Origin: a virus
Reading direction: 5' to 3' (one strand)
IMG/VR virus record: IMGVR_UViG_3300046007_007028
Location: 8,440 to 72,439 of that record
Length of the DNA: 64,000 nt
The stretch's first letter is position 1. Each line of letters opens with the position of its first letter. Shown here piece by piece: positions 4,026-36,672 of this stretch. The notes under the pieces were generated by a model. That model saw only the letters and a list, made by a program, of their open reading frames with translations. It was not told the DNA's origin and did no database searches. The position numbers and the translations under genes were made by a program.

Positions 4026-4029
4026 AAAA

Positions 4030-4134
4030 TGAAAGACCCCGAACTCAAACGCTGCTACACATTCAAATCCGAGGTCAGTTGTTGGTTGTTAAACCAATAT
4101 TTTTTTGCTGGTAGCAGACAGCAATACAAAGGTA
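4030..4134 (-). promoter_or_regulatory. Promoter TACCTTTG plus kissing-loop leader 1
   Basis: Hairpin A loop CUGCUAC (4111-4117) is complementary to hairpin B loop GUAGCAG (4052-4058). Confidence 0.7.
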
Positions 4135-18618: not shown

Positions 18619-19485
18619 ATGCAATTACAGAAAGCAACCCGGAAGAAGACGAAGCTACGGCTAAATCTTTCGGCCCCTTCAGGTGCGGGAAAGACCTATT
18701 CAGCCCTTCTTATGGCCAAAGGATTGGTCGGGGATTGGGACAAAATTGCCGTTATTGATACCGAAAACGGTTCGGCATCTCTGTACGAACACCTCGGCCC
18801 GTTCAACGTCATTGACCTTGCCCCACCATTTTCCCCGGAGCGATACATACAAGCCATTGACGCTTGTGTTGCCGCTGGGATGGAGTGCATTATCATTGAC
18901 TCCAGTTCACACGAATGGAGCGGCCCCGGAGGGTGTCTGGAGTCAAACGACGCACTTGCCGCTGCAAAGTTTAAAGGAAACAATTGGGCCGCCTGGAACG
19001 AAACGACGCCCCGCCACGAACGCTTTGTGAGCAAGGTGCTTCACTGCGACGCTCACGTAATTACCTGCACCCGTTCCAAGATGGAGACCGTTCAGGAAGG
19101 GGGAAAGATAAAGAAGTTGGGTATGAAGGACATCCAAAGGGAAAACTGGGAGTACGAATTAACCGTATCGCTATCAATTGATAGAGATACCCACATGGCG
19201 GTCCCAAGCAAGGACCGTACGCAACTGTTTGAGGGCACAGCTCCATTTGTCATCACCGAAGAAACCGGTAAACTGATAAAGGCATGGTGCGAAACCGGCG
19301 TGGTGGACCCGGTCAATGAGTTCCGGGACAAGTTGCGCAAGGTTATTGACAACCCGCTTATCACTCCAGAGGAACGGGCTAAGTGGGAGAACTGGATGCC
19401 GTCTGGCACGGCAGAAACCCTTCAGGGACAGATTGCAAAAGCACAGGAAATGATTAACCAACGCACCAATGAACCTCAACCGTGA
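18619..19485 (+). CDS. AAA_24 / Sak4-like recombination ATPase
   Basis: APSGAGKTYSAL, IDTENGSASLY, IIDSSSHEW. Confidence 0.88.
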   Translation: MQLQKATRKKTKLRLNLSAPSGAGKTYSALLMAKGLVGDWDKIAVIDTENGSASLYEHLGPFNVIDLAPPFSPERYIQAIDACVAAGMECIIIDSSSHEWSGPGGCLESNDALAAAKFKGNNWAAWNETTPRHERFVSKVLHCDAHVITCTRSKMETVQEGGKIKKLGMKDIQRENWEYELTVSLSIDRDTHMAVPSKDRTQLFEGTAPFVITEETGKLIKAWCETGVVDPVNEFRDKLRKVIDNPLITPEERAKWENWMPSGTAETLQGQIAKAQEMINQRTNEPQP

Positions 19486-19657
19486 ACTGACCTGCATCAT
19501 TTCCGACGCCCGGTTGTTTAGCGACGCTGACCGCACCCGATTCAGGGAGCGGACGGCTCGCAGGCCGGTGGAACAGGTTGTTGCCGTGGCCCGTCGGGTG
19601 GAAGCGGCAAGGTGGAAGAAGTGGAAAGAAGAGCATCGTAATTTTTTGATAGGATGA
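19469..19657 (+). CDS. Hypothetical protein
   Basis: Overlap-coupled 62-aa ORF. Confidence 0.5.
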   Translation: MNLNRELTCIISDARLFSDADRTRFRERTARRPVEQVVAVARRVEAARWKKWKEEHRNFLIG

Positions 19658-20166
19658 ATTTATTCAACATTACACACGAACGCAAGCTGCTTATGCAGCA
19701 GTTGGAAGCCGCAGACGGGGAGGCGTCAGAGGAGCTTCTGGAAGAACTTGCAATCAATCGGTCAAACTTTGAAGAAAAGGCCGAAGGATACGCCTACATG
19801 ATGCGCAAACTCGAAACGGATGTGAATGCCGTCAAAAGCGAAATCGACCGCCTGACGGCCCTAAAAACGGCAAAAGAAAGGGCATACGAACGCCTTGAAA
19901 AGACTTTGCTTGATGCCGTTGTTCAATACGGGGAGAAAGGCAAGGACGACGTGGCAAGGGCCGAGGTTGGGACTTTCCGGTTTTCAACCCGTCGCAATCC
20001 CGCTTCGGTTGAGATTTTGGATGAAGAGGCTATTCCAGAGGAGTACAAGGTGAGCAAGACGACGGTGAGCGTAAGCAAGACGACGATCAAAAACGCCTTG
20101 TCTTTGGGGCAGTCCGTTCCGGGGGCGCAGATGAAGGAGGGGGACTTGAGGCTGGTTGTGAAGTAA
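19654..20166 (+). CDS. Siphovirus Gp157 family protein
   Basis: EEKAEGYA...EIDRL..K...RRNP.SV.ILDE..IP.EY...V.GA. Confidence 0.85.
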   Translation: MNLFNITHERKLLMQQLEAADGEASEELLEELAINRSNFEEKAEGYAYMMRKLETDVNAVKSEIDRLTALKTAKERAYERLEKTLLDAVVQYGEKGKDDVARAEVGTFRFSTRRNPASVEILDEEAIPEEYKVSKTTVSVSKTTIKNALSLGQSVPGAQMKEGDLRLVVK

Positions 20167-20185
20167 AAAAATGTTTTTACATTTG

Positions 20186-20640
20186 CAGCGGATAGAAAAC
20201 CAAGCTGAACCGGTTTATTGCCCAACCAACCCCTCATAGGGCAAAAGTGTGCATCCTAATTACCGGTTCAGCCATAGTTTAGCAATAAGCTATGCGGTTT
20301 TTGGGGTGCACACTTTTGTTTTGCCCCTCTTTGGTTTTGACTTTCTACCATAGTCCAAAGACAAAAAGAAAGGCCGTTTGATCCGGCTGGGAGTAATCCT
20401 GAAAACTCGACCACACACAGGCTTGCGATTAAGTCCTGCTCTGACCCAAGGTGTCAACAGGCAACTGGTGCCGGAAGGTAGTAAGTCTGATGAACGAAAC
20501 ACCCAAAGCTGTTAAAGCTGAAGTTAATAAGAATTGGGACAGGACGGAAGTGGTGGTTTGGGTTGAAGTGTTAATAGGAGACACTTAAATCTTGGTACAT
20601 GGGGAACCTATACACCAGGATAAAAACCTTCCTATGATTA
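20186..20640 (+). ncRNA. Large structured RNA / leader (~450 nt) including kissing-loop element 3
   Basis: TACATTTG promoter at 20178-20185, no credible ORF, many local and long-range helices. Confidence 0.65.
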
Positions 20641-20654
20641 AAAACCAATAATTT

Positions 20655-20975
20655 ATGCTACTCCACACAATCGAACGAGGCAAGTATGCGAGGGTGGTCG
20701 CTGAAAGGGTGGTTTACATTGAAGCATCCGGTCAGGACCAAACAACCCTGCACATGACAGACAAACGGATGATTGCGGTACGTGGTGCATTGGGATTGAT
20801 TGCGGCCAAATTCCCGACCTTTTCTCAGGCTGCCAAATATTGCTATGTGAATCCGGACCATGTTTATTCCGTTCGGGTAATTGGTATGAGGGTTCATATT
20901 AAGTTTGGGAATGGGGAGAAGCTGGAGGTGGGCCGGAGCAAAAAATTCTACAAACAATTTTTGTCGTCCCTTTGA
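20655..20975 (+). CDS. Stand-alone LytTR-like DNA-binding protein
   Basis: VVYIEASGQ...TLH...L..I...F.Q..K.CYVNPDHV...LEVGRS, matching LytTR I.YIEA / F.R.HRSY.VN / L.VSR. Confidence 0.75.
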   Translation: MLLHTIERGKYARVVAERVVYIEASGQDQTTLHMTDKRMIAVRGALGLIAAKFPTFSQAAKYCYVNPDHVYSVRVIGMRVHIKFGNGEKLEVGRSKKFYKQFLSSL

Positions 20976-21029
20976 GGGGTTTGGTCGAAGAATTTATATC
21001 TGATTGAGAGGGTGAAATATTTTTGAAAC

Positions 21030-24948: not shown

Positions 24949-25079
24949 TATATTTGCATGGCTTCCAATAGGAAGCAACCAACGGACTAGGTTGGACAAG
25001 AAACTGGGAGAAATCCCATAACACGGCCCTGAATTGGCGTAGCTAGTCCCTGCGTTGATTTGGGGCTTTTGTTTTTAAG
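24949..25079 (+). promoter_or_regulatory. Promoter TATATTTG plus kissing-loop leader 2
   Basis: Loop GGACUAG (24984-24990) complementary to loop CUAGUCC (25043-25049). Confidence 0.72.
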
Positions 25080-33812: not shown

Positions 33813-34129
33813 ATCAACTTATCGACGATTTCCTGTCGCTCGCAGCACGAGGCTATCAACTCGTCTATTTCTTTTGGGACAACAGCCCTTTCATCTCCCA
33901 CCTCCACAATATCGGGGTTCAGTGGTTCATTGATATGGGGCAGGATGTCAACCCAGCACTCGTCAAATCCCCCGTCAATAATGGCCTGAGCCAAGACGGG
34001 TCCACAGAACAGGATAATAGGCCCTTTGTTCTCTGCCCACCATAAAGCCCTCCCGACAAGGTCGGAAAGACTTTCTTTGGTGATGACAAAGTTGTTTGGG
34101 ACGGTTTGGTGTCCGGTGGTATCAAGCAT
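33800..34129 (-). CDS. Hypothetical protein
   Basis: 109 aa. Confidence 0.65.
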   Translation of the reverse strand: MLDTTGHQTVPNNFVITKESLSDLVGRALWWAENKGPIILFCGPVLAQAIIDGGFDECWVDILPHINEPLNPDIVEVGDERAVVPKEIDELIASCCERQEIVDKLIKAV

Positions 34130-35172
34130 TATTCCCCAACTTTAGCGGATTTTGCCCCGGACTTACTCGTCTTGGAAAGCTCATCAAGGTAGGTGGCAAG
34201 GGCTTTGTAGCCGTCGCTGCCATCAATCTTTTTCTTGATATACAACACGCGCTCCTCTTCGTTTACAAACGTCGGGATTGGCTCCTCAAACTTGAAAAAC
34301 ACCTTCCCGTTGTCGGTCCGGATTGCCTCAAAGTCTGTCAGCTTCACCTTACCGCTTTTGATGGCGCCAACAAACTGGTCAACCTCAATGGCATTGTCAA
34401 GGTCTGCAAAGATTTTGCGCATCCTGTCGTAGCCACCAACTTCTTTGACCTTGTTGACAAGGTAAGCCCGTGCCCCTGGTGTGGACTTGGCAAGCGTTGG
34501 TTGATTGAAGAATTTGTACCCGCGGAAATTGTCGGACATCAAAATTTGCAGATGGCCCTCCTGAACTTCGCGAATCTTGTCGTTGACCTCCTGTTCCCGC
34601 TCCCACGCATCGTACACATCCACGCCCTGAAGATCAGGGTTCTTGAACTCAAATGTCCAATTCCTGCGCAGCACCATATTAGCAATAACATTCTTGCGGG
34701 TCACTTCCTTCCCGTCCTGCCTTAGCTTTGATATTGTGGCAAGGATGTCCTGACGGCATTGTGGGTGCAACTGAAGCACCAGCCAATCAATTTGGTCCTC
34801 TTGGTTGTCGCCACGAAAGGTCTGAACGCCAAAGTTGTTGAACTGGCGACGACGGAACCTTGGCATATTGTTTCCGTGCCAGCCCGCATGAAAGCCAAGC
34901 AATACCTTTTGAGCATTCCATGTAATGTCCCATGATTTTATCAGTCCGATAACGCCGAGCCTTTGCTCCACGCCGGAAGATATAACCTTGTTTTTGTCAA
35001 GGGACGAGCCTTTCTGAACGTGAACCTTCGTAAAAAAGGTTGGGTTGATCGTCACTTGCTTTACTTCTCCCGGACTTAAAATGTCAAGGAGGCTTTTGTC
35101 TGTCGCTTTCGCATCGTACAATTCCGATGGGAGGTCATTGACCTTTACCACCATGGTAGTTAAGCTTTGCAT
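34129..35172 (-). CDS. Head-associated hypothetical protein
   Basis: 347 aa immediately after capsid gene. Confidence 0.7.
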   Translation of the reverse strand: MQSLTTMVVKVNDLPSELYDAKATDKSLLDILSPGEVKQVTINPTFFTKVHVQKGSSLDKNKVISSGVEQRLGVIGLIKSWDITWNAQKVLLGFHAGWHGNNMPRFRRRQFNNFGVQTFRGDNQEDQIDWLVLQLHPQCRQDILATISKLRQDGKEVTRKNVIANMVLRRNWTFEFKNPDLQGVDVYDAWEREQEVNDKIREVQEGHLQILMSDNFRGYKFFNQPTLAKSTPGARAYLVNKVKEVGGYDRMRKIFADLDNAIEVDQFVGAIKSGKVKLTDFEAIRTDNGKVFFKFEEPIPTFVNEEERVLYIKKKIDGSDGYKALATYLDELSKTSKSGAKSAKVGE

Positions 35173-35197
35173 TTTTTTGTTTGTTAAAAGGTAAATA

Positions 35198-35228
35198 AAA
35201 AAGCAGGGGACACCGCGCCCCCTGCTTT
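35198..35228 (-). terminator. Terminator after capsid gene
   Basis: aaagcagggg...cccctgctttttt. Confidence 0.75.
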
Positions 35229-35241
35229 GAAGAAAACATTT

Positions 35242-36672
35242 TTAGGCAGGTGCCCCAAAGTAGAGCTTGTTTGCAAGCATCGTTTGAACGGCAATGTCCT
35301 TACCCATGGTCATGTAGAACTCTTCTTTTTGAAGGTTCTCAGGATTGACGTTATAAACCCTTGTTTTGAGTTTCTGACCGCCAATCATTTGAGGAGATTC
35401 CTTCTGAAGAATCCGTACCATCGGAGCAGTAACGGAGAAAGAAGTGTTGGACATTCCTTTCTGCAAAGCATACTGCTGGTCAGGGATAATGATGAAGGCA
35501 TTATTCCAGTAGGCAGCGGTTTGCACGCCGTCAGAGTTCAATGGCGAATACATTTCCTTGTGTGACCACTCAGAGGCATTCATCAAATCAAACTCCCTTA
35601 CGCCCAAGATAAACCGGCCCAAAGTCCGCTTAATCTGGTTGCGCTCACTGTTTTGGATGCCCTCCCCGGAGATATACTGGATAGCCCCGTTGGTAAGAGC
35701 GGCAAAGTTGTTGCGCTGCAAGGTATTGACCGCGTTTGCACCACCCCAGAAATTGACCTTAGACCCCGCCTGAACAGCGTCAAGCTGATCGGAGATGTCA
35801 TAAAAGTCATCAAAGGTCATTGTGCCAGCGGCAAAAGTGTCGCTGATGCCGTATGTCTGAGCGGCGGAAACGTACCCTTGAGTAGTCGCCTTCCCGTTCA
35901 AAGTTTCGCCCCGGCTAACGGTGGCAATGGCAGAAGTTTCAAGGTAAGAAGTCAGGATTGCATCCGAGAAAATCTTGGCGGCAAGGTAGGTCTGACCCTC
36001 AAACTTGAACTCAAAAGACTGGTTGTAAGCAGCCGGATTGATTGTGGCCGAGCTGGTCAGTTGGTACTGCCATGTTACGCCATAACGGGACCAGCCACGA
36101 ACCGATCCACCAGGAAAGCTGTCGCCATACGCAAACGCAGAGGCTTGTGGCTTCAAAACGTCACCAGAGGCCACCAGCGTATTCAGCACCGCAGTTGATG
36201 TGGATTTGAATTTGATGGTGTGTGTGCTTGAGGCGGGGTCAAATACGGGAGCCTCGGAAACAATCAACTGAGTGGACGGAACCGCCCCTTCAAAGATTTT
36301 ACCGATAGTACCGTAGTTGTAGAAGTAGTCTGACCCGTTGTTGTCAAAGGAATTGGCAACAACAGTAACAGTGATTTCAGCACCGGCAGATGCACCACCA
36401 GTAGTGGAAACAACCGTAAGGGTGTTGAGGACAGAGTTTTGCTCTGTATGGAAGATGTTGTTGGTATCGACGGCAACGCCTACGAATCCACCATTATCAA
36501 CCTGATTAGCCATGAACCCATTTTCGATGGGGGCACGGTCTTCGTACTGGTCCAGAAGGACTGGCCAGAACTGACGGGTTTGCGACGTTGAGTCAGCAAA
36601 ACCAGCAAGAACCTGAGAGATGTCGGGGGTTGAACCACTACCGGCACCAACAGGACCAAATAATGCAGCCAT
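35242..36672 (-). CDS. Major capsid protein (putative)
   Basis: 476 aa, portal-scaffold-capsid order, followed by strong terminator. Confidence 0.75.
   Translation of the reverse strand: MAALFGPVGAGSGSTPDISQVLAGFADSTSQTRQFWPVLLDQYEDRAPIENGFMANQVDNGGFVGVAVDTNNIFHTEQNSVLNTLTVVSTTGGASAGAEITVTVVANSFDNNGSDYFYNYGTIGKIFEGAVPSTQLIVSEAPVFDPASSTHTIKFKSTSTAVLNTLVASGDVLKPQASAFAYGDSFPGGSVRGWSRYGVTWQYQLTSSATINPAAYNQSFEFKFEGQTYLAAKIFSDAILTSYLETSAIATVSRGETLNGKATTQGYVSAAQTYGISDTFAAGTMTFDDFYDISDQLDAVQAGSKVNFWGGANAVNTLQRNNFAALTNGAIQYISGEGIQNSERNQIKRTLGRFILGVREFDLMNASEWSHKEMYSPLNSDGVQTAAYWNNAFIIIPDQQYALQKGMSNTSFSVTAPMVRILQKESPQMIGGQKLKTRVYNVNPENLQKEEFYMTMGKDIAVQTMLANKLYFGAPA

What the first reader, a model, noticed from the sequence alone, without database searches (positions are those of the whole stretch)
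20178..20654. ~470-nt highly structured non-coding RNA between a promoter and the LytTR gene
Seen: TACATTTG promoter and no credible ORF. The 5' domain has hairpin A (aaacc/gguuu) with loop GCUGAAC (20204-20210), complementary to GUUCAGC (20266-20272) displayed in the long stem gggcaaaagugugcauccuaa/uuggggugcacacuuuuguuu; this is a third kissing-loop element. aaaaccaag can alternatively pair with cuugguuuu. The 3' domain has nested long-range helices (aacucgaccac/gugguuuggguu; guccug/caggac) enclosing GNRA hairpins (ugcc-GGAA-ggua, ggga-GUAA-uccu), followed by aagugu/acacuu and auccuggu-type stems. Inference: a large unclassified ncRNA or complex riboregulator that times expression of the LytTR activator.
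Basis: partly seen in the sequence, partly recalled or inferred. Interest (0 to 1): 0.8.

Follow-up and report, generated by a model that had tools for sequence, protein, structure and literature searches.

The report
Orphan structured RNA leader before phage LytTR
A 488-base gene-free stretch in a lake-water phage folds unusually well as RNA on one strand and sits where related phages carry only a short hairpin before the same regulator gene, so it is probably an enlarged regulatory RNA leader, but no diverged copy or expression data exist to prove it.

Summary
Window 20167-20654 lies between a Sipho_Gp157 gene and a 106-aa LytTR gene. It has no credible ORF and no Rfam match.

- **Fold:** the + strand folds far better than shuffles (z -4.1) and the - strand does not (z -0.5). 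It ranks 1 of 796 strand-specific 480-nt windows.
- **Where the signal lies:** it is uneven. Strong: a 19+4+9-bp hairpin B (z -7.8) and two 3' hairpins (z -4.6). Modest: the 161-nt multi-helix domain (z -2.05). None: 20327-20403.
- **5' module:** an 11-nt perfect complement (20204-20214 / 20262-20272) can form a pseudoknot with hairpin B. This module is a variant third copy of a leader found before the phage's two HNH_3 genes.
- **Relatives:** phages with 63-65% Gp157 identity keep Gp157-LytTR order, but the spacer is only 74-90 nt. It holds a covarying hairpin plus U-run. A remnant of that leader survives at 20522-20543, so the stretch is a lineage-specific expansion.
- **Lake strains:** one contig pair carries 9 differences in the flanking genes and none in 20153-20659.
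- **Missing:** no diverged homologue was found, so covariation could not be tested, and no RNA run was listed.

Best reading: a cis-acting attenuator-like leader of LytTR (0.45). The scan noted this stretch twice before, on the same genome only.

The parts
19654..20166 (+). Upstream gene: Sipho_Gp157 family (PHROG 'Mu Gam-like end protection')
   Evidence: Pfam PF05565 E 8.9e-31. phrog_253 E 2.3e-34. The stop position matches relatives.
20178..20185 (+). TACATTTG, a Bacteroidota-type -7 box candidate (TAnnTTTG; consensus recalled)
   Evidence: The same box stands 58-76 nt before hairpin B in all three leaders. Alone it is not enriched in the window.
20186..20207 (+). Weak 5' hairpin CAGCGG...CC..GCUG.
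   Evidence: MFE with mean pair probability 0.55-0.71.
20204..20214 (+). 5' strand of helix K1 (GCUGAACCGGU)
   Evidence: 11-nt, 100% complement to 20262-20272. Duplex -19.7 kcal/mol. It is in the MFE of nascent transcripts ending at 20272-20310.
20241..20319 (+). Hairpin B: 19-bp G.U-containing lower stem, ACCG/CGGU, and an inner 9-bp hairpin with a GCAA loop. K1's 3' strand (20262-20272) sits in its interior loop.
   Evidence: Pair probability 0.98-0.99. For 20234-20326, z -7.75 on + and -4.78 on -.
20314..20323 (+). U-rich run UUUUGUUUUG overlapping the 3' end of hairpin B (terminator-like tail)
   Evidence: Read from the sequence. The tool's terminator scan did not list it (its loop limit is 8). 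It did list the equivalent hairpins of the two HNH leaders.
20327..20403 (+). Linker segment with small hairpins (GGCCG/CGGCU; GGGA-GUAA-UCCU). No fold signal.
   Evidence: z -0.66 on + and -0.48 on -. Pair probabilities 0.34-0.86.
20404..20564 (+). Multi-helix 3' domain: nested long-range helices enclosing a GGAA-capped arm
   Evidence: z -2.05 on + (8 of 200 shuffles as low) and +0.25 on -. Pair probabilities 0.77-0.99.
20522..20543 (+). Remnant of the ancestral LytTR leader (GTTAATAAGAATTGGGACAGG), now the 3' strand of the domain's inner helices
   Evidence: 15 of 16 identical to the same spot of the 74-90-nt spacers of L032, L033 and L039. 90% over 21 nt in L064.
20566..20621 (+). Two hairpins: AAGUGUU/GACACUU and AUCUUGGU..AUGGG-GAA-CCUAU..ACCAGGAU
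   Evidence: For 20565-20625, z -4.64 on + and -2.13 on -. Pair probabilities 0.92-0.98.
20631..20637 (+). CCUAUGA, predicted to pair with UCAUAGG (20234-20240). This closes the whole domain 18 nt before the LytTR AUG.
   Evidence: MFE, mean pair probability 0.84. Prediction only.
20655..20975 (+). Downstream gene: 106-aa LytTR-domain protein
   Evidence: Pfam PF04397 E 2.1e-06, 28.3 bits against a cut-off of 22.6. The start aligns with relatives' MLIRTIEQGKYA.
4026..4134 (-). Paralogous leader 1 before a NUMOD4-HNH_3 gene: TACCTTTG, a hairpin with loop CUGCUAC, an 18-bp hairpin with GUAGCAG, then a U-run and ATG
24949..25079 (+). Paralogous leader 2 before an HNH_3 gene: TATATTTG, a hairpin with loop GGACUAG, an 18-bp hairpin with loop CUAGUCC, then a U-run and ATG

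Best explanation
The stretch is a lineage-specific, non-coding, + strand RNA leader of the LytTR gene in a lake phage whose kin point to a Bacteroidota host. It was built by expanding the short hairpin-plus-U-run leader that related phages carry.

It has two modules.

**Module 1 (20178-20326).** A -7-box candidate, a weak 5' hairpin, and a long terminator-like hairpin B with a U-rich tail. An 11-nt segment near the 5' end pairs with the interior loop of hairpin B. That pairing forms first on the nascent chain. It then either persists as an H-type pseudoknot or gives way to the full hairpin. This module is a variant third copy of the leader that precedes the phage's two HNH_3 endonuclease genes.

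**Module 2 (20327-20654).** The read-through part: an unstructured linker, a moderately supported multi-helix domain built around the remnant of the old leader, and two strong hairpins. A predicted 7-bp helix closes the whole domain 18 nt before the AUG.

**Proposed working (inferred).** Most transcripts from the box, or from the upstream operon, stop or are processed at hairpin B. LytTR is made only from read-through, so the leader attenuates LytTR expression.

**Shown:** sequence, fold statistics, paralogy, absence from relatives, and invariance among strains. **Inferred:** transcription, termination, and any effect on LytTR.
For: 1. Non-coding. No ORF over 45 aa on +. Small or recoded ORFs hit neither Pfam nor PHROGs. 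TAG ends 4 of 37 long ORFs, so TAG recoding is unlikely.
2. RNA-level, strand-specific fold. z -4.11 on + against -0.46 on -. Rank 1 of 796 windows. 19 of 146 predicted pairs are G.U, and most helices have P > 0.9.
3. The position is that of a conserved LytTR leader. LytTR follows Gp157 in 7 of 11 metagenome loci, with spacers of 74-90 nt in six and 301 nt in one. The same leader travels with LytTR in L064, which gave no Gp157 match. Its hairpin has 14 pairs, 3 with compensatory changes, and G.U pairs on the + strand.
4. A 15-of-16 remnant of that leader lies at 20528-20543.
5. Paralogy. Both HNH_3 genes are preceded by a -7 box, a hairpin whose loop is a 7-nt perfect complement of the loop of an 18-bp hairpin, and a U-run. 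The tool lists both 18-bp hairpins as terminator-like. Such complements occur at 2 of 54 TAnnTTTG sites and in 0 of 300 random controls. The three hairpins share CCYNRAUU / UUYGGGG arms (read).
6. Nascent-chain folds hold K1 until about 20310. The full fold is -53.7 kcal/mol against -44.4 with K1 enforced.
7. In lake run X13, two contigs cover 19873-20693 with 9 differences. All lie in the genes, 5 of the 7 listed in Gp157 are synonymous, and none lies in 20153-20659.
Against: - No diverged homologue of the stretch was found anywhere searched, so there is no covariation support for any helix of this stretch.
- There is no evidence of transcription, of a 5' end at the box, or of termination at hairpin B.
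- The terminator scan did not list hairpin B. Its U-run is partly paired with an upstream A-run.
- The box motif is at chance frequency in the window.
- Relatives do without this element, so LytTR control does not need it.
- The large 3' domain is only modestly better than shuffles (8 of 200), and 20327-20403 is not better at all.
- Zero differences in 507 nt beside diverged flanks fits a recent recombination or sweep at least as well as constraint. X7 and X23 show mosaic haplotypes: Gp157 and the covered RNA parts are identical, while LytTR has 18 listed differences.
- Unlike the HNH leaders, the complement is not in a terminal loop, and the ATG is 330 nt away.
Confidence: 0.45

Rival explanations
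1. A stand-alone, trans-acting non-coding RNA gene. This could be the whole ~470 nt, or just the ~130-nt unit from the box to hairpin B's U-run. It would be a promoter-RNA-terminator 'moron' dropped between Gp157 and LytTR, with a function unrelated to LytTR, such as a decoy, a sponge or an assembly RNA.
For: - A box plus a terminator-like hairpin delimit a compact unit.
- The spot just after the Gp157 stop also holds a different insert in L037, a 68-aa Cys-rich ORF.
- The fold ensemble is well defined.
- There is no variation among lake strains.
- It is not in Rfam.
Against: - No terminator-like site follows the 3' domain on the + strand, so a 470-nt RNA would run into LytTR.
- The two paralogous units abut the HNH start codons with no room for another promoter. 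This favours a leader role.
- No homologues and no expression data exist.
Confidence: 0.2
2. A recently spread, selfish or neutral non-coding insert. Candidates are the relic of a homing-endonuclease cassette that lost its gene, or a recombination patch. Its hairpins would be inherited from the leader family and not selected for a role here.
For: - Absent from all relatives with Gp157-LytTR synteny.
- Identical among haplotypes whose flanks differ, with the differences resuming within 14 nt and 6 nt of the gene borders.
- The 5' module resembles the leaders of the two HNH_3 genes.
- 20327-20403 has no fold signal.
Against: - No trace of a decayed ORF. blastx against the window's own ORFs, and tblastx and blastn against both HNH genes and against relatives, gave nothing better than E 0.03.
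- No significant terminal repeats. The flanking 13-nt direct and 27-nt inverted repeats are at chance level by my estimate.
- The + strand-only fold excess also holds outside the shared leader part: z -2.56 against -0.07 for 20327-20654.
Confidence: 0.2
3. A DNA-level element in the replication/recombination module, such as a replication origin, a protein-binding site or a recombination site. The palindromes would then act as DNA.
For: - It lies beside AAA_24 and Gp157/Gam-like genes.
- Hairpin B is also a strong palindrome on the - strand, z -4.78.
Against: - The fold excess is strand-specific and rests on G.U pairs.
- There is no AT-rich dip: GC 0.415-0.48 against 0.476 for the window.
- There are no iteron-like repeat families.
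Confidence: 0.07
4. Chance: an ordinary spacer that happens to fold well.
For: There are no homologues and no covariation. One segment is at shuffle level.
Against: - Rank 1 of 796 windows.
- 0 of 100 and 0 of 200 shuffles reach the observed energies.
- Two perfect inverted repeats of 11 nt or more, where 3 of 3000 windows have even one.
Confidence: 0.05

Closest known systems
Leader attenuators of mobile elements, e.g. the zipper-type attenuator cATTpLS20 in the 456-nt leader of the pLS20 conjugation operon (PMC13401043; abstract and outline read)
   Same: A leader several hundred nt long on a mobile genome. It holds a weak upstream stem-loop, a long imperfect stem-loop, and a terminator-like element. 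Complementarity between distant segments gives alternative folds.
   Different: There, the upstream stem-loop pairs with the downstream terminator to extend the long stem into an antiterminator. Here, the upstream segment pairs with the interior loop of the long hairpin itself, and the two folds may coexist as a pseudoknot. The host phylum differs. No sequence relation was tested or is expected. Function is shown there and only inferred here.
The short LytTR leader of related lake phages (L032, L033, L035, L037-L040, L064)
   Same: Same position directly before the orthologous LytTR gene, the same + strand G.U-containing hairpin logic, and a shared remnant at 20522-20543.
   Different: Those spacers are 74-90 nt with one 14-pair hairpin, U6-7 and a CA-rich run before the ATG. 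This one is 488 nt, lacks that hairpin's 3' arm and the U-run before the ATG, and has gained a separate 5' module.
The two HNH_3-gene leaders of the same phage (window 4026-4134 minus strand; 24949-25079)
   Same: A -7 box 58-76 nt before a long G.U-rich hairpin with a U-rich tail, an upstream segment perfectly complementary to the hairpin's apical region, and shared CCYNRAUU / UUYGGGG arms.
   Different: There the complements are 7 nt, both sit in terminal loops, and the ATG follows within about 10 nt. Here the complement is 11 nt, its partner is in an interior loop beside an inserted 9-bp hairpin, the stem is extended by about 12 bp, and 330 nt precede the ATG.
Large phage-associated ornate RNAs GOLLD and ROOL (PMC12286853; search listing and abstract start only)
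   Same: Large non-coding RNAs linked with phages and, for GOLLD, with lake metagenomes. They are rich in hairpins.
   Different: No family, these included, reached its Rfam gathering score. None was among the 7 matches at E <= 10 in 19900-20900. This stretch is shorter and has no homologues.
phi29 pRNA and ColE1 RNA I / RNA II loop-loop pairing; T7 intergenic RNase III sites (all recalled, not tested)
   Same: Two loops of perfect complementarity on one RNA (pRNA pairs them between molecules). Stems of about 20 bp between phage genes resemble RNase III substrates.
   Different: No Rfam match to any family. There is no packaging-gene context. Nothing here shows intermolecular pairing or processing.

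Membership tests
Any Rfam 15 family (includes riboswitches, ribozymes, group I/II introns, GOLLD, ROOL, HEARO, pRNA, 6S, tmRNA) | Covariance-model score at or above the family's gathering score | tested here: not met
   There were 0 matches in the whole window. At E <= 10 in 19900-20900 there were 7 matches. The best was SNORA40 on the - strand, 24.1 bits against 51, E 0.12. ARAGORN found no tRNA or tmRNA.
Intrinsic (Rho-independent) terminator / attenuator | A G+C-containing hairpin directly followed by a U-run | tested here: inconclusive
   Hairpin B has a 19-bp stem, and UUUUGUUUUG lies at 20314-20323. But the run is partly inside the stem, the apical part is 41 nt, and the scan (loop limit 8) did not list it. 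The equivalent hairpins of the two HNH leaders were listed.
Intrinsic (Rho-independent) terminator / attenuator | Termination of transcripts at the site, relieved under some condition | not testable with these tools
   No RNA run was listed.
Intra-phage 'complementary-loop' leader family (defined here from the two HNH_3 leaders) | A TAnnTTTG box 55-80 nt upstream of a long G.U-rich hairpin with a U-rich tail | tested here: met
   The box at 20178 is 63 nt before 20241. The other two stand 58 and 76 nt before.
Intra-phage 'complementary-loop' leader family (defined here from the two HNH_3 leaders) | A perfect complement of 7 nt or more between an upstream segment and the apex of the long hairpin | tested here: met
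   11 nt, 100%. The other two leaders have 7 nt.
Intra-phage 'complementary-loop' leader family (defined here from the two HNH_3 leaders) | Both complementary segments lie in terminal hairpin loops of the MFE fold | tested here: not met
   The 3' partner is in an interior loop, and the 5' partner is partly paired in the MFE. The loop-loop scan found only the two HNH leaders.
Intra-phage 'complementary-loop' leader family (defined here from the two HNH_3 leaders) | The start codon of the served gene lies within about 10 nt of the U-run | tested here: not met
   The LytTR ATG is at 20655, about 330 nt after the U-run.
Conserved LytTR leader of related phages | A 14-pair hairpin ACAGGGCCG..CGGTCCTGT, then U6-7 and a CA-rich run 15-20 nt before the ATG | tested here: not met
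   Only the 5' flank and 5' arm survive, at 20522-20543. No matching 3' arm or U-run precedes the ATG.
Protein-coding gene (standard or recoded) | An open frame with family or homologue support | tested here: not met
   TAG=Q opens 114 codons, but there is no Pfam or PHROG hit, and TAG ends 4 of 37 long ORFs.

The most novel reading that the evidence does not exclude
The stretch, or at least its ~130-nt 5' unit together with the two HNH-gene leaders, would represent an undescribed class of phage RNA. A perfectly complementary pair of segments, differing in sequence in each copy, clamps a terminator-like hairpin into a pseudoknot or kissing fold, or joins molecules as in phi29 pRNA. The 470-nt version would be a mobile non-coding cassette that has recently spread unchanged among diverged lake-phage strains.
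Probability: 0.15. Interest if true: 0.75.

Novelty: new variant of a known kind. Interest (0 to 1): 0.45.

Why it matters
If the reading holds, it shows a phage of a poorly studied host group (freshwater Bacteroidota) remodelling a simple hairpin leader into a several-hundred-nt composite RNA. It reuses a leader module that also guards its homing-endonuclease genes.

The three copies, each with a different but self-complementary pair of segments, form a natural compensatory series. It invites a direct test of whether tertiary pairing to a terminator hairpin tunes read-through.

It would also add a candidate to the short list of large phage-borne structured RNAs.

If the element is only a recent neutral insert, its interest is limited to phage mosaicism.

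Tried and rejected
**Searches for homologues (all negative)**
- Phage GenBank collection, blastn 'distant': no match.
- 25 loci (L002-L026), nhmmer and blastn: none.
- 24 whole virus records of AAA_24 relatives: 5 had matches at E <= 1, all 14-25 nt, best E 0.0225.
- 11 metagenome loci of Gp157 relatives: nhmmer found none. blastn found only the 16-nt leader remnant and chance words.
- Viral pattern scan for the leader remnant: 4 stretches. L046 is the known relative. L043 lies inside a 1027-aa ORF. L044 and L045 had no relation.
- Viral scan for a 19-mer of the 3' domain: 1 stretch, with 22 nt of likeness only.
- Genome contigs with the Gp157 alignment: none.
- 13 genome loci of AAA_24 relatives (112,329 nt): nhmmer found none.
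- 5 genomes, then 401 genomes of the order of G025: 2 short matches, 56 nt at 77% and 25 nt at 96%. The second lies inside a 302-aa ORF. For the first I read the flanks but listed no ORFs. I treat both as chance.
- The scan's own notes by sequence and by relatives: only this stretch itself.
- The LytTR protein has one near homologue (95%) in the word-indexed search. Gp157 homologues jump from 100% to 68% or less. No intermediate relative was on hand.

**Decayed-gene idea**
- blastx against the window's ORFs, tblastx against relatives, and blastn and tblastx against both HNH genes gave nothing better than E 0.03.
- Recoding (TAG=Q, table 4) is rejected.

**Other ideas rejected**
- Hammerhead-like CUGAUGA..GAAAC at 20487-20502: there is no room for stem II and no Rfam hit.
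- Flanking 13-nt direct repeats and 27-nt, 70% inverted repeats: by my own estimate about chance level.
- The kissing-leader architecture was sought elsewhere. In 323,130 nt of related loci, 96 hairpins had 3 upstream and 7 downstream complements, mostly AT-rich. In 13 loci of distant HNH relatives, 0 had a loop complement of 7 or more; the maximum was 5.
- A covariance model of the leader family was not built. MAFFT paired non-equivalent hairpins of the two HNH leaders.

**Expression:** no RNA holder was listed among 24 runs. This is no evidence either way.

**Papers**
- Four searches found nothing describing this element, LytTR leaders in Bacteroidota phages, or kissing-loop leaders of homing-endonuclease genes.
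- I read the abstract and outline of PMC13401043. All other papers I saw as search listings only. No supplements were opened.

**Recalled items.** The following are recalled and come from no call: the Bacteroidota -7/-33 consensus; phi29 pRNA; ColE1 RNA I / RNA II; T7 RNase III sites; the phylum of the named genome records.
Full report
**Setting.**
- The window is part of an IMG/VR virus record of 72,439 bases, estimated 64% complete.
- Public runs that hold the stretch are lake-water metagenomes.
- Genome records holding relatives of the neighbouring AAA_24 gene are, by title, mostly Bacteroidota: 11 of 13, by my own knowledge of the names. They include Lacibacter at 60% and a Chitinophagales MAG at 83% over 101 aa. 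This fits reading TAnnTTTG as a Bacteroidota -7 box (consensus recalled).
- The stretch lies in a run of + strand genes. Upstream are AAA_24 at 18619-19485 and Sipho_Gp157 at 19654-20166. Downstream is a 106-aa LytTR-domain protein at 20655-20975.
- Both gene borders are fixed by alignment with relatives. The gene-free stretch is therefore 20167-20654, 488 nt.

- Yes.
- The + strand folds at -152.3 kcal/mol against -125.4 +/- 6.5 for dinucleotide shuffles (z -4.11, 0 of 100 as low). The - strand gives z -0.46, with 32 of 100 as low.
- I folded 398 windows of 480 nt on both strands and regressed energy on composition. The + strand window at 20161 is the most extreme of 796, at z -3.83.
- The signal is uneven (200 shuffles each):

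| Segment | z on + strand | z on - strand |
|---|---|---|
| Hairpin B, 20234-20326 | -7.75 | -4.78 |
| Linker, 20327-20403 | -0.66 | -0.48 |
| Multi-helix domain, 20404-20564 | -2.05 | +0.25 |
| Two hairpins, 20565-20625 | -4.64 | -2.13 |

- 19 of 146 predicted pairs are G.U, and most helices have pair probability above 0.9.

**Not coding, not a known RNA.**
- No + strand ORF exceeds 45 aa.
- Reading TAG as Gln opens 114 codons. That product and the small ORFs hit nothing in Pfam or PHROGs. TAG ends 4 of 37 long ORFs.
- Rfam gives no match at gathering scores in the whole window. Around the stretch it gives only seven sub-threshold matches, best E 0.12 on the wrong strand. There is no tRNA or tmRNA.
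- GC content is ordinary, and there are no iteron-like repeats.

**The 5' module.**
- An 11-nt perfect complement joins 20204-20214 to 20262-20272. The second site is in the interior loop of hairpin B.
- A perfect inverted repeat of 11 nt or more occurs in 3 of 3000 random 150-nt windows of this phage. This module has two, arranged so that both can form only as an H-type pseudoknot.
- I folded nascent transcripts ending at 20272, 20285, 20300 and 20310. The 11-bp helix (duplex -19.7 kcal/mol) is in each minimum-energy fold, later joined by AAAACC/GGUUUU. Only the full module switches to hairpin B, at -53.7 against -44.4 kcal/mol with the 11-bp helix enforced.
- Whether the two coexist or compete cannot be told by these tools.

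**A family inside the phage.**
- I followed two earlier notes of this scan to the leaders at 4026-4134 (- strand) and 24949-25079.
- Both precede HNH_3 genes, which are paralogues: 43% over 69 aa, E 1.7e-17.
- Each has a TAnnTTTG box, a small hairpin whose 7-nt loop is the perfect complement of the loop of an 18-bp G.U-rich hairpin, a U-run, and then the ATG. The tool lists both 18-bp hairpins as terminator-like.
- I folded 150 nt after each of the 54 TAnnTTTG sites of the record. Only these two have hairpin loops complementary over 7 nt. None of 300 random controls reaches 7.
- The three long hairpins share CCYNRAUU / UUYGGGG arms (read).
- The present copy departs from the other two in three ways. 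Its stem is longer. A 9-bp hairpin is inserted beside the complementary segment. The next ATG is about 330 nt away.
- I found no such leader in 323 kb of related loci or before 13 distant HNH relatives.

**What relatives show.**
- The protein searches found Gp157 homologues at 100% and then at 68% or less.
- The metagenome scan gave 11 loci. LytTR follows Gp157 in 7 of them. In two the contig ends first, one has other genes, and one is distant.
- In six of the seven the spacer is 74-90 nt. In L037 it is 301 nt and holds a 68-aa Cys-rich ORF just after the Gp157 stop.
- The spacer has TTGGTTAA-like direct repeats, a hairpin, U6-7, a CA-rich run, and then the ATG. The same leader precedes LytTR in L064, which gave no Gp157 match, so it belongs to LytTR.
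- Across nine sequences the hairpin has 14 pairs, 3 with compensatory changes and many G.U to G-C changes. One of the nine, L036, precedes another gene.
- None of these loci has anything like the 488-nt stretch, except for one word. TAAGAATTGGGACAGG at 20528-20543 matches 15 of 16 positions at the same spot of three spacers. My estimate of about 4e-4 for such a match, given the small search space, is my own arithmetic.
- In this phage that remnant forms the 3' strand of the inner helices of the 3' domain.
- The stretch is thus a lineage-specific expansion of a conserved, simple, structured LytTR leader.

**Strain variation.**
- I laid four lake runs on 19650-21000.
- In X13, one contig covers 19873-20553 with 8 differences. 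The 7 listed ones are all at or before 20152, and 5 of them are synonymous. A second contig covers 20543-20693 with one difference, at 20660, which is synonymous.
- So X13 shows 9 differences in 314 flanking nt and none in the 507 nt of 20153-20659. Under uniform spread (314/821)^9 is about 2e-4, by my arithmetic.
- In X7 and X23 the contigs over Gp157 and over parts of the stretch (20167-20368 and 20471-20623; 20233-20412) are identical to the window. The LytTR contigs carry 18 listed differences (19 counted), 13 of them synonymous (19 listed and 14 synonymous once X13's 20660 is added).
- Parts of the stretch are uncovered in X7 and X23. Contig ends near 20369, 20471, 20623 and 20688 may hide variants. 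X17 gave only an unrelated 37-nt overlap.
- The pattern fits strong constraint or a recent sweep or recombination patch. I cannot separate the two, and total invariance over 507 nt leans toward the latter.

**Reading.**
- I put 0.45 on a cis-acting, attenuator-like leader of LytTR made of a reused leader module plus an expanded read-through part.
- I put 0.20 on a stand-alone RNA gene, 0.20 on a recent non-functional insert, 0.07 on a DNA-level element, and 0.05 on chance. About 0.03 is left unassigned.
- The closest described analogue I could find is the zipper-type attenuator in the 456-nt leader of the pLS20 conjugation operon (PMC13401043, abstract). It differs in which segments pair.
- Nothing shows transcription, termination or any effect on LytTR.
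There is no Rfam match, there are no homologues on which to test covariation, and there are no RNA data.

Noticed in passing
L032:4508-4583, L033, L035, L037-L040, L064:2920-3003: Related lake phages carry a conserved ~75-nt LytTR leader. It has TTGGTTAA-like direct repeats about 10-11 nt apart, a 14-pair hairpin with compensatory changes, U6-7, and a CA-repeat run before the ATG. The repeats could be an operator, and the hairpin a terminator that LytTR expression must read through.
   Followed up: partly
L037:4519-4725 (same contig as L046 and L065): A 68-aa Cys-rich ORF is inserted just after the Gp157 stop. This is the same spot where the window carries its non-coding insert, which suggests an insertion hotspot.
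   Followed up: no
window 35041-35520, minus strand: This is the second most extreme composition-corrected fold energy of 796 windows (z -3.64). It lies at the junction of ORFs 34129-35172 and 35242-36672, with perfect-stem hairpins at 35172-35203 (+) and 35228-35200 (-).
   Followed up: no
window 4026-4134 (-) and 24949-25079 (+): Both HNH_3 endonuclease genes are preceded by a box, a small hairpin and an 18-bp terminator-like hairpin whose loops are perfect 7-nt complements. The loop sequences differ between the two copies. This was seen at 2 of 54 box sites and in 0 of 300 controls. It was not found before 13 distant HNH relatives.
   Followed up: partly
window 19654-20166: The Sipho_Gp157 protein also matches PHROG 253, 'Mu Gam-like end protection' (E 2.3e-34). 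This places the stretch in a recombination and end-protection module.
   Followed up: no
L067, L069, L078 (about 1400-1445): Distant HNH relatives in other viral contigs have GTTACCTTTG followed by an A-run directly before the ATG. This is a plain Bacteroidota-type promoter with no structured leader.
   Followed up: no
window 20208-20215: The core of the 11-nt complement contains the 8-nt palindrome AACCGGUU. Two molecules could therefore pair through it as well.
   Followed up: no
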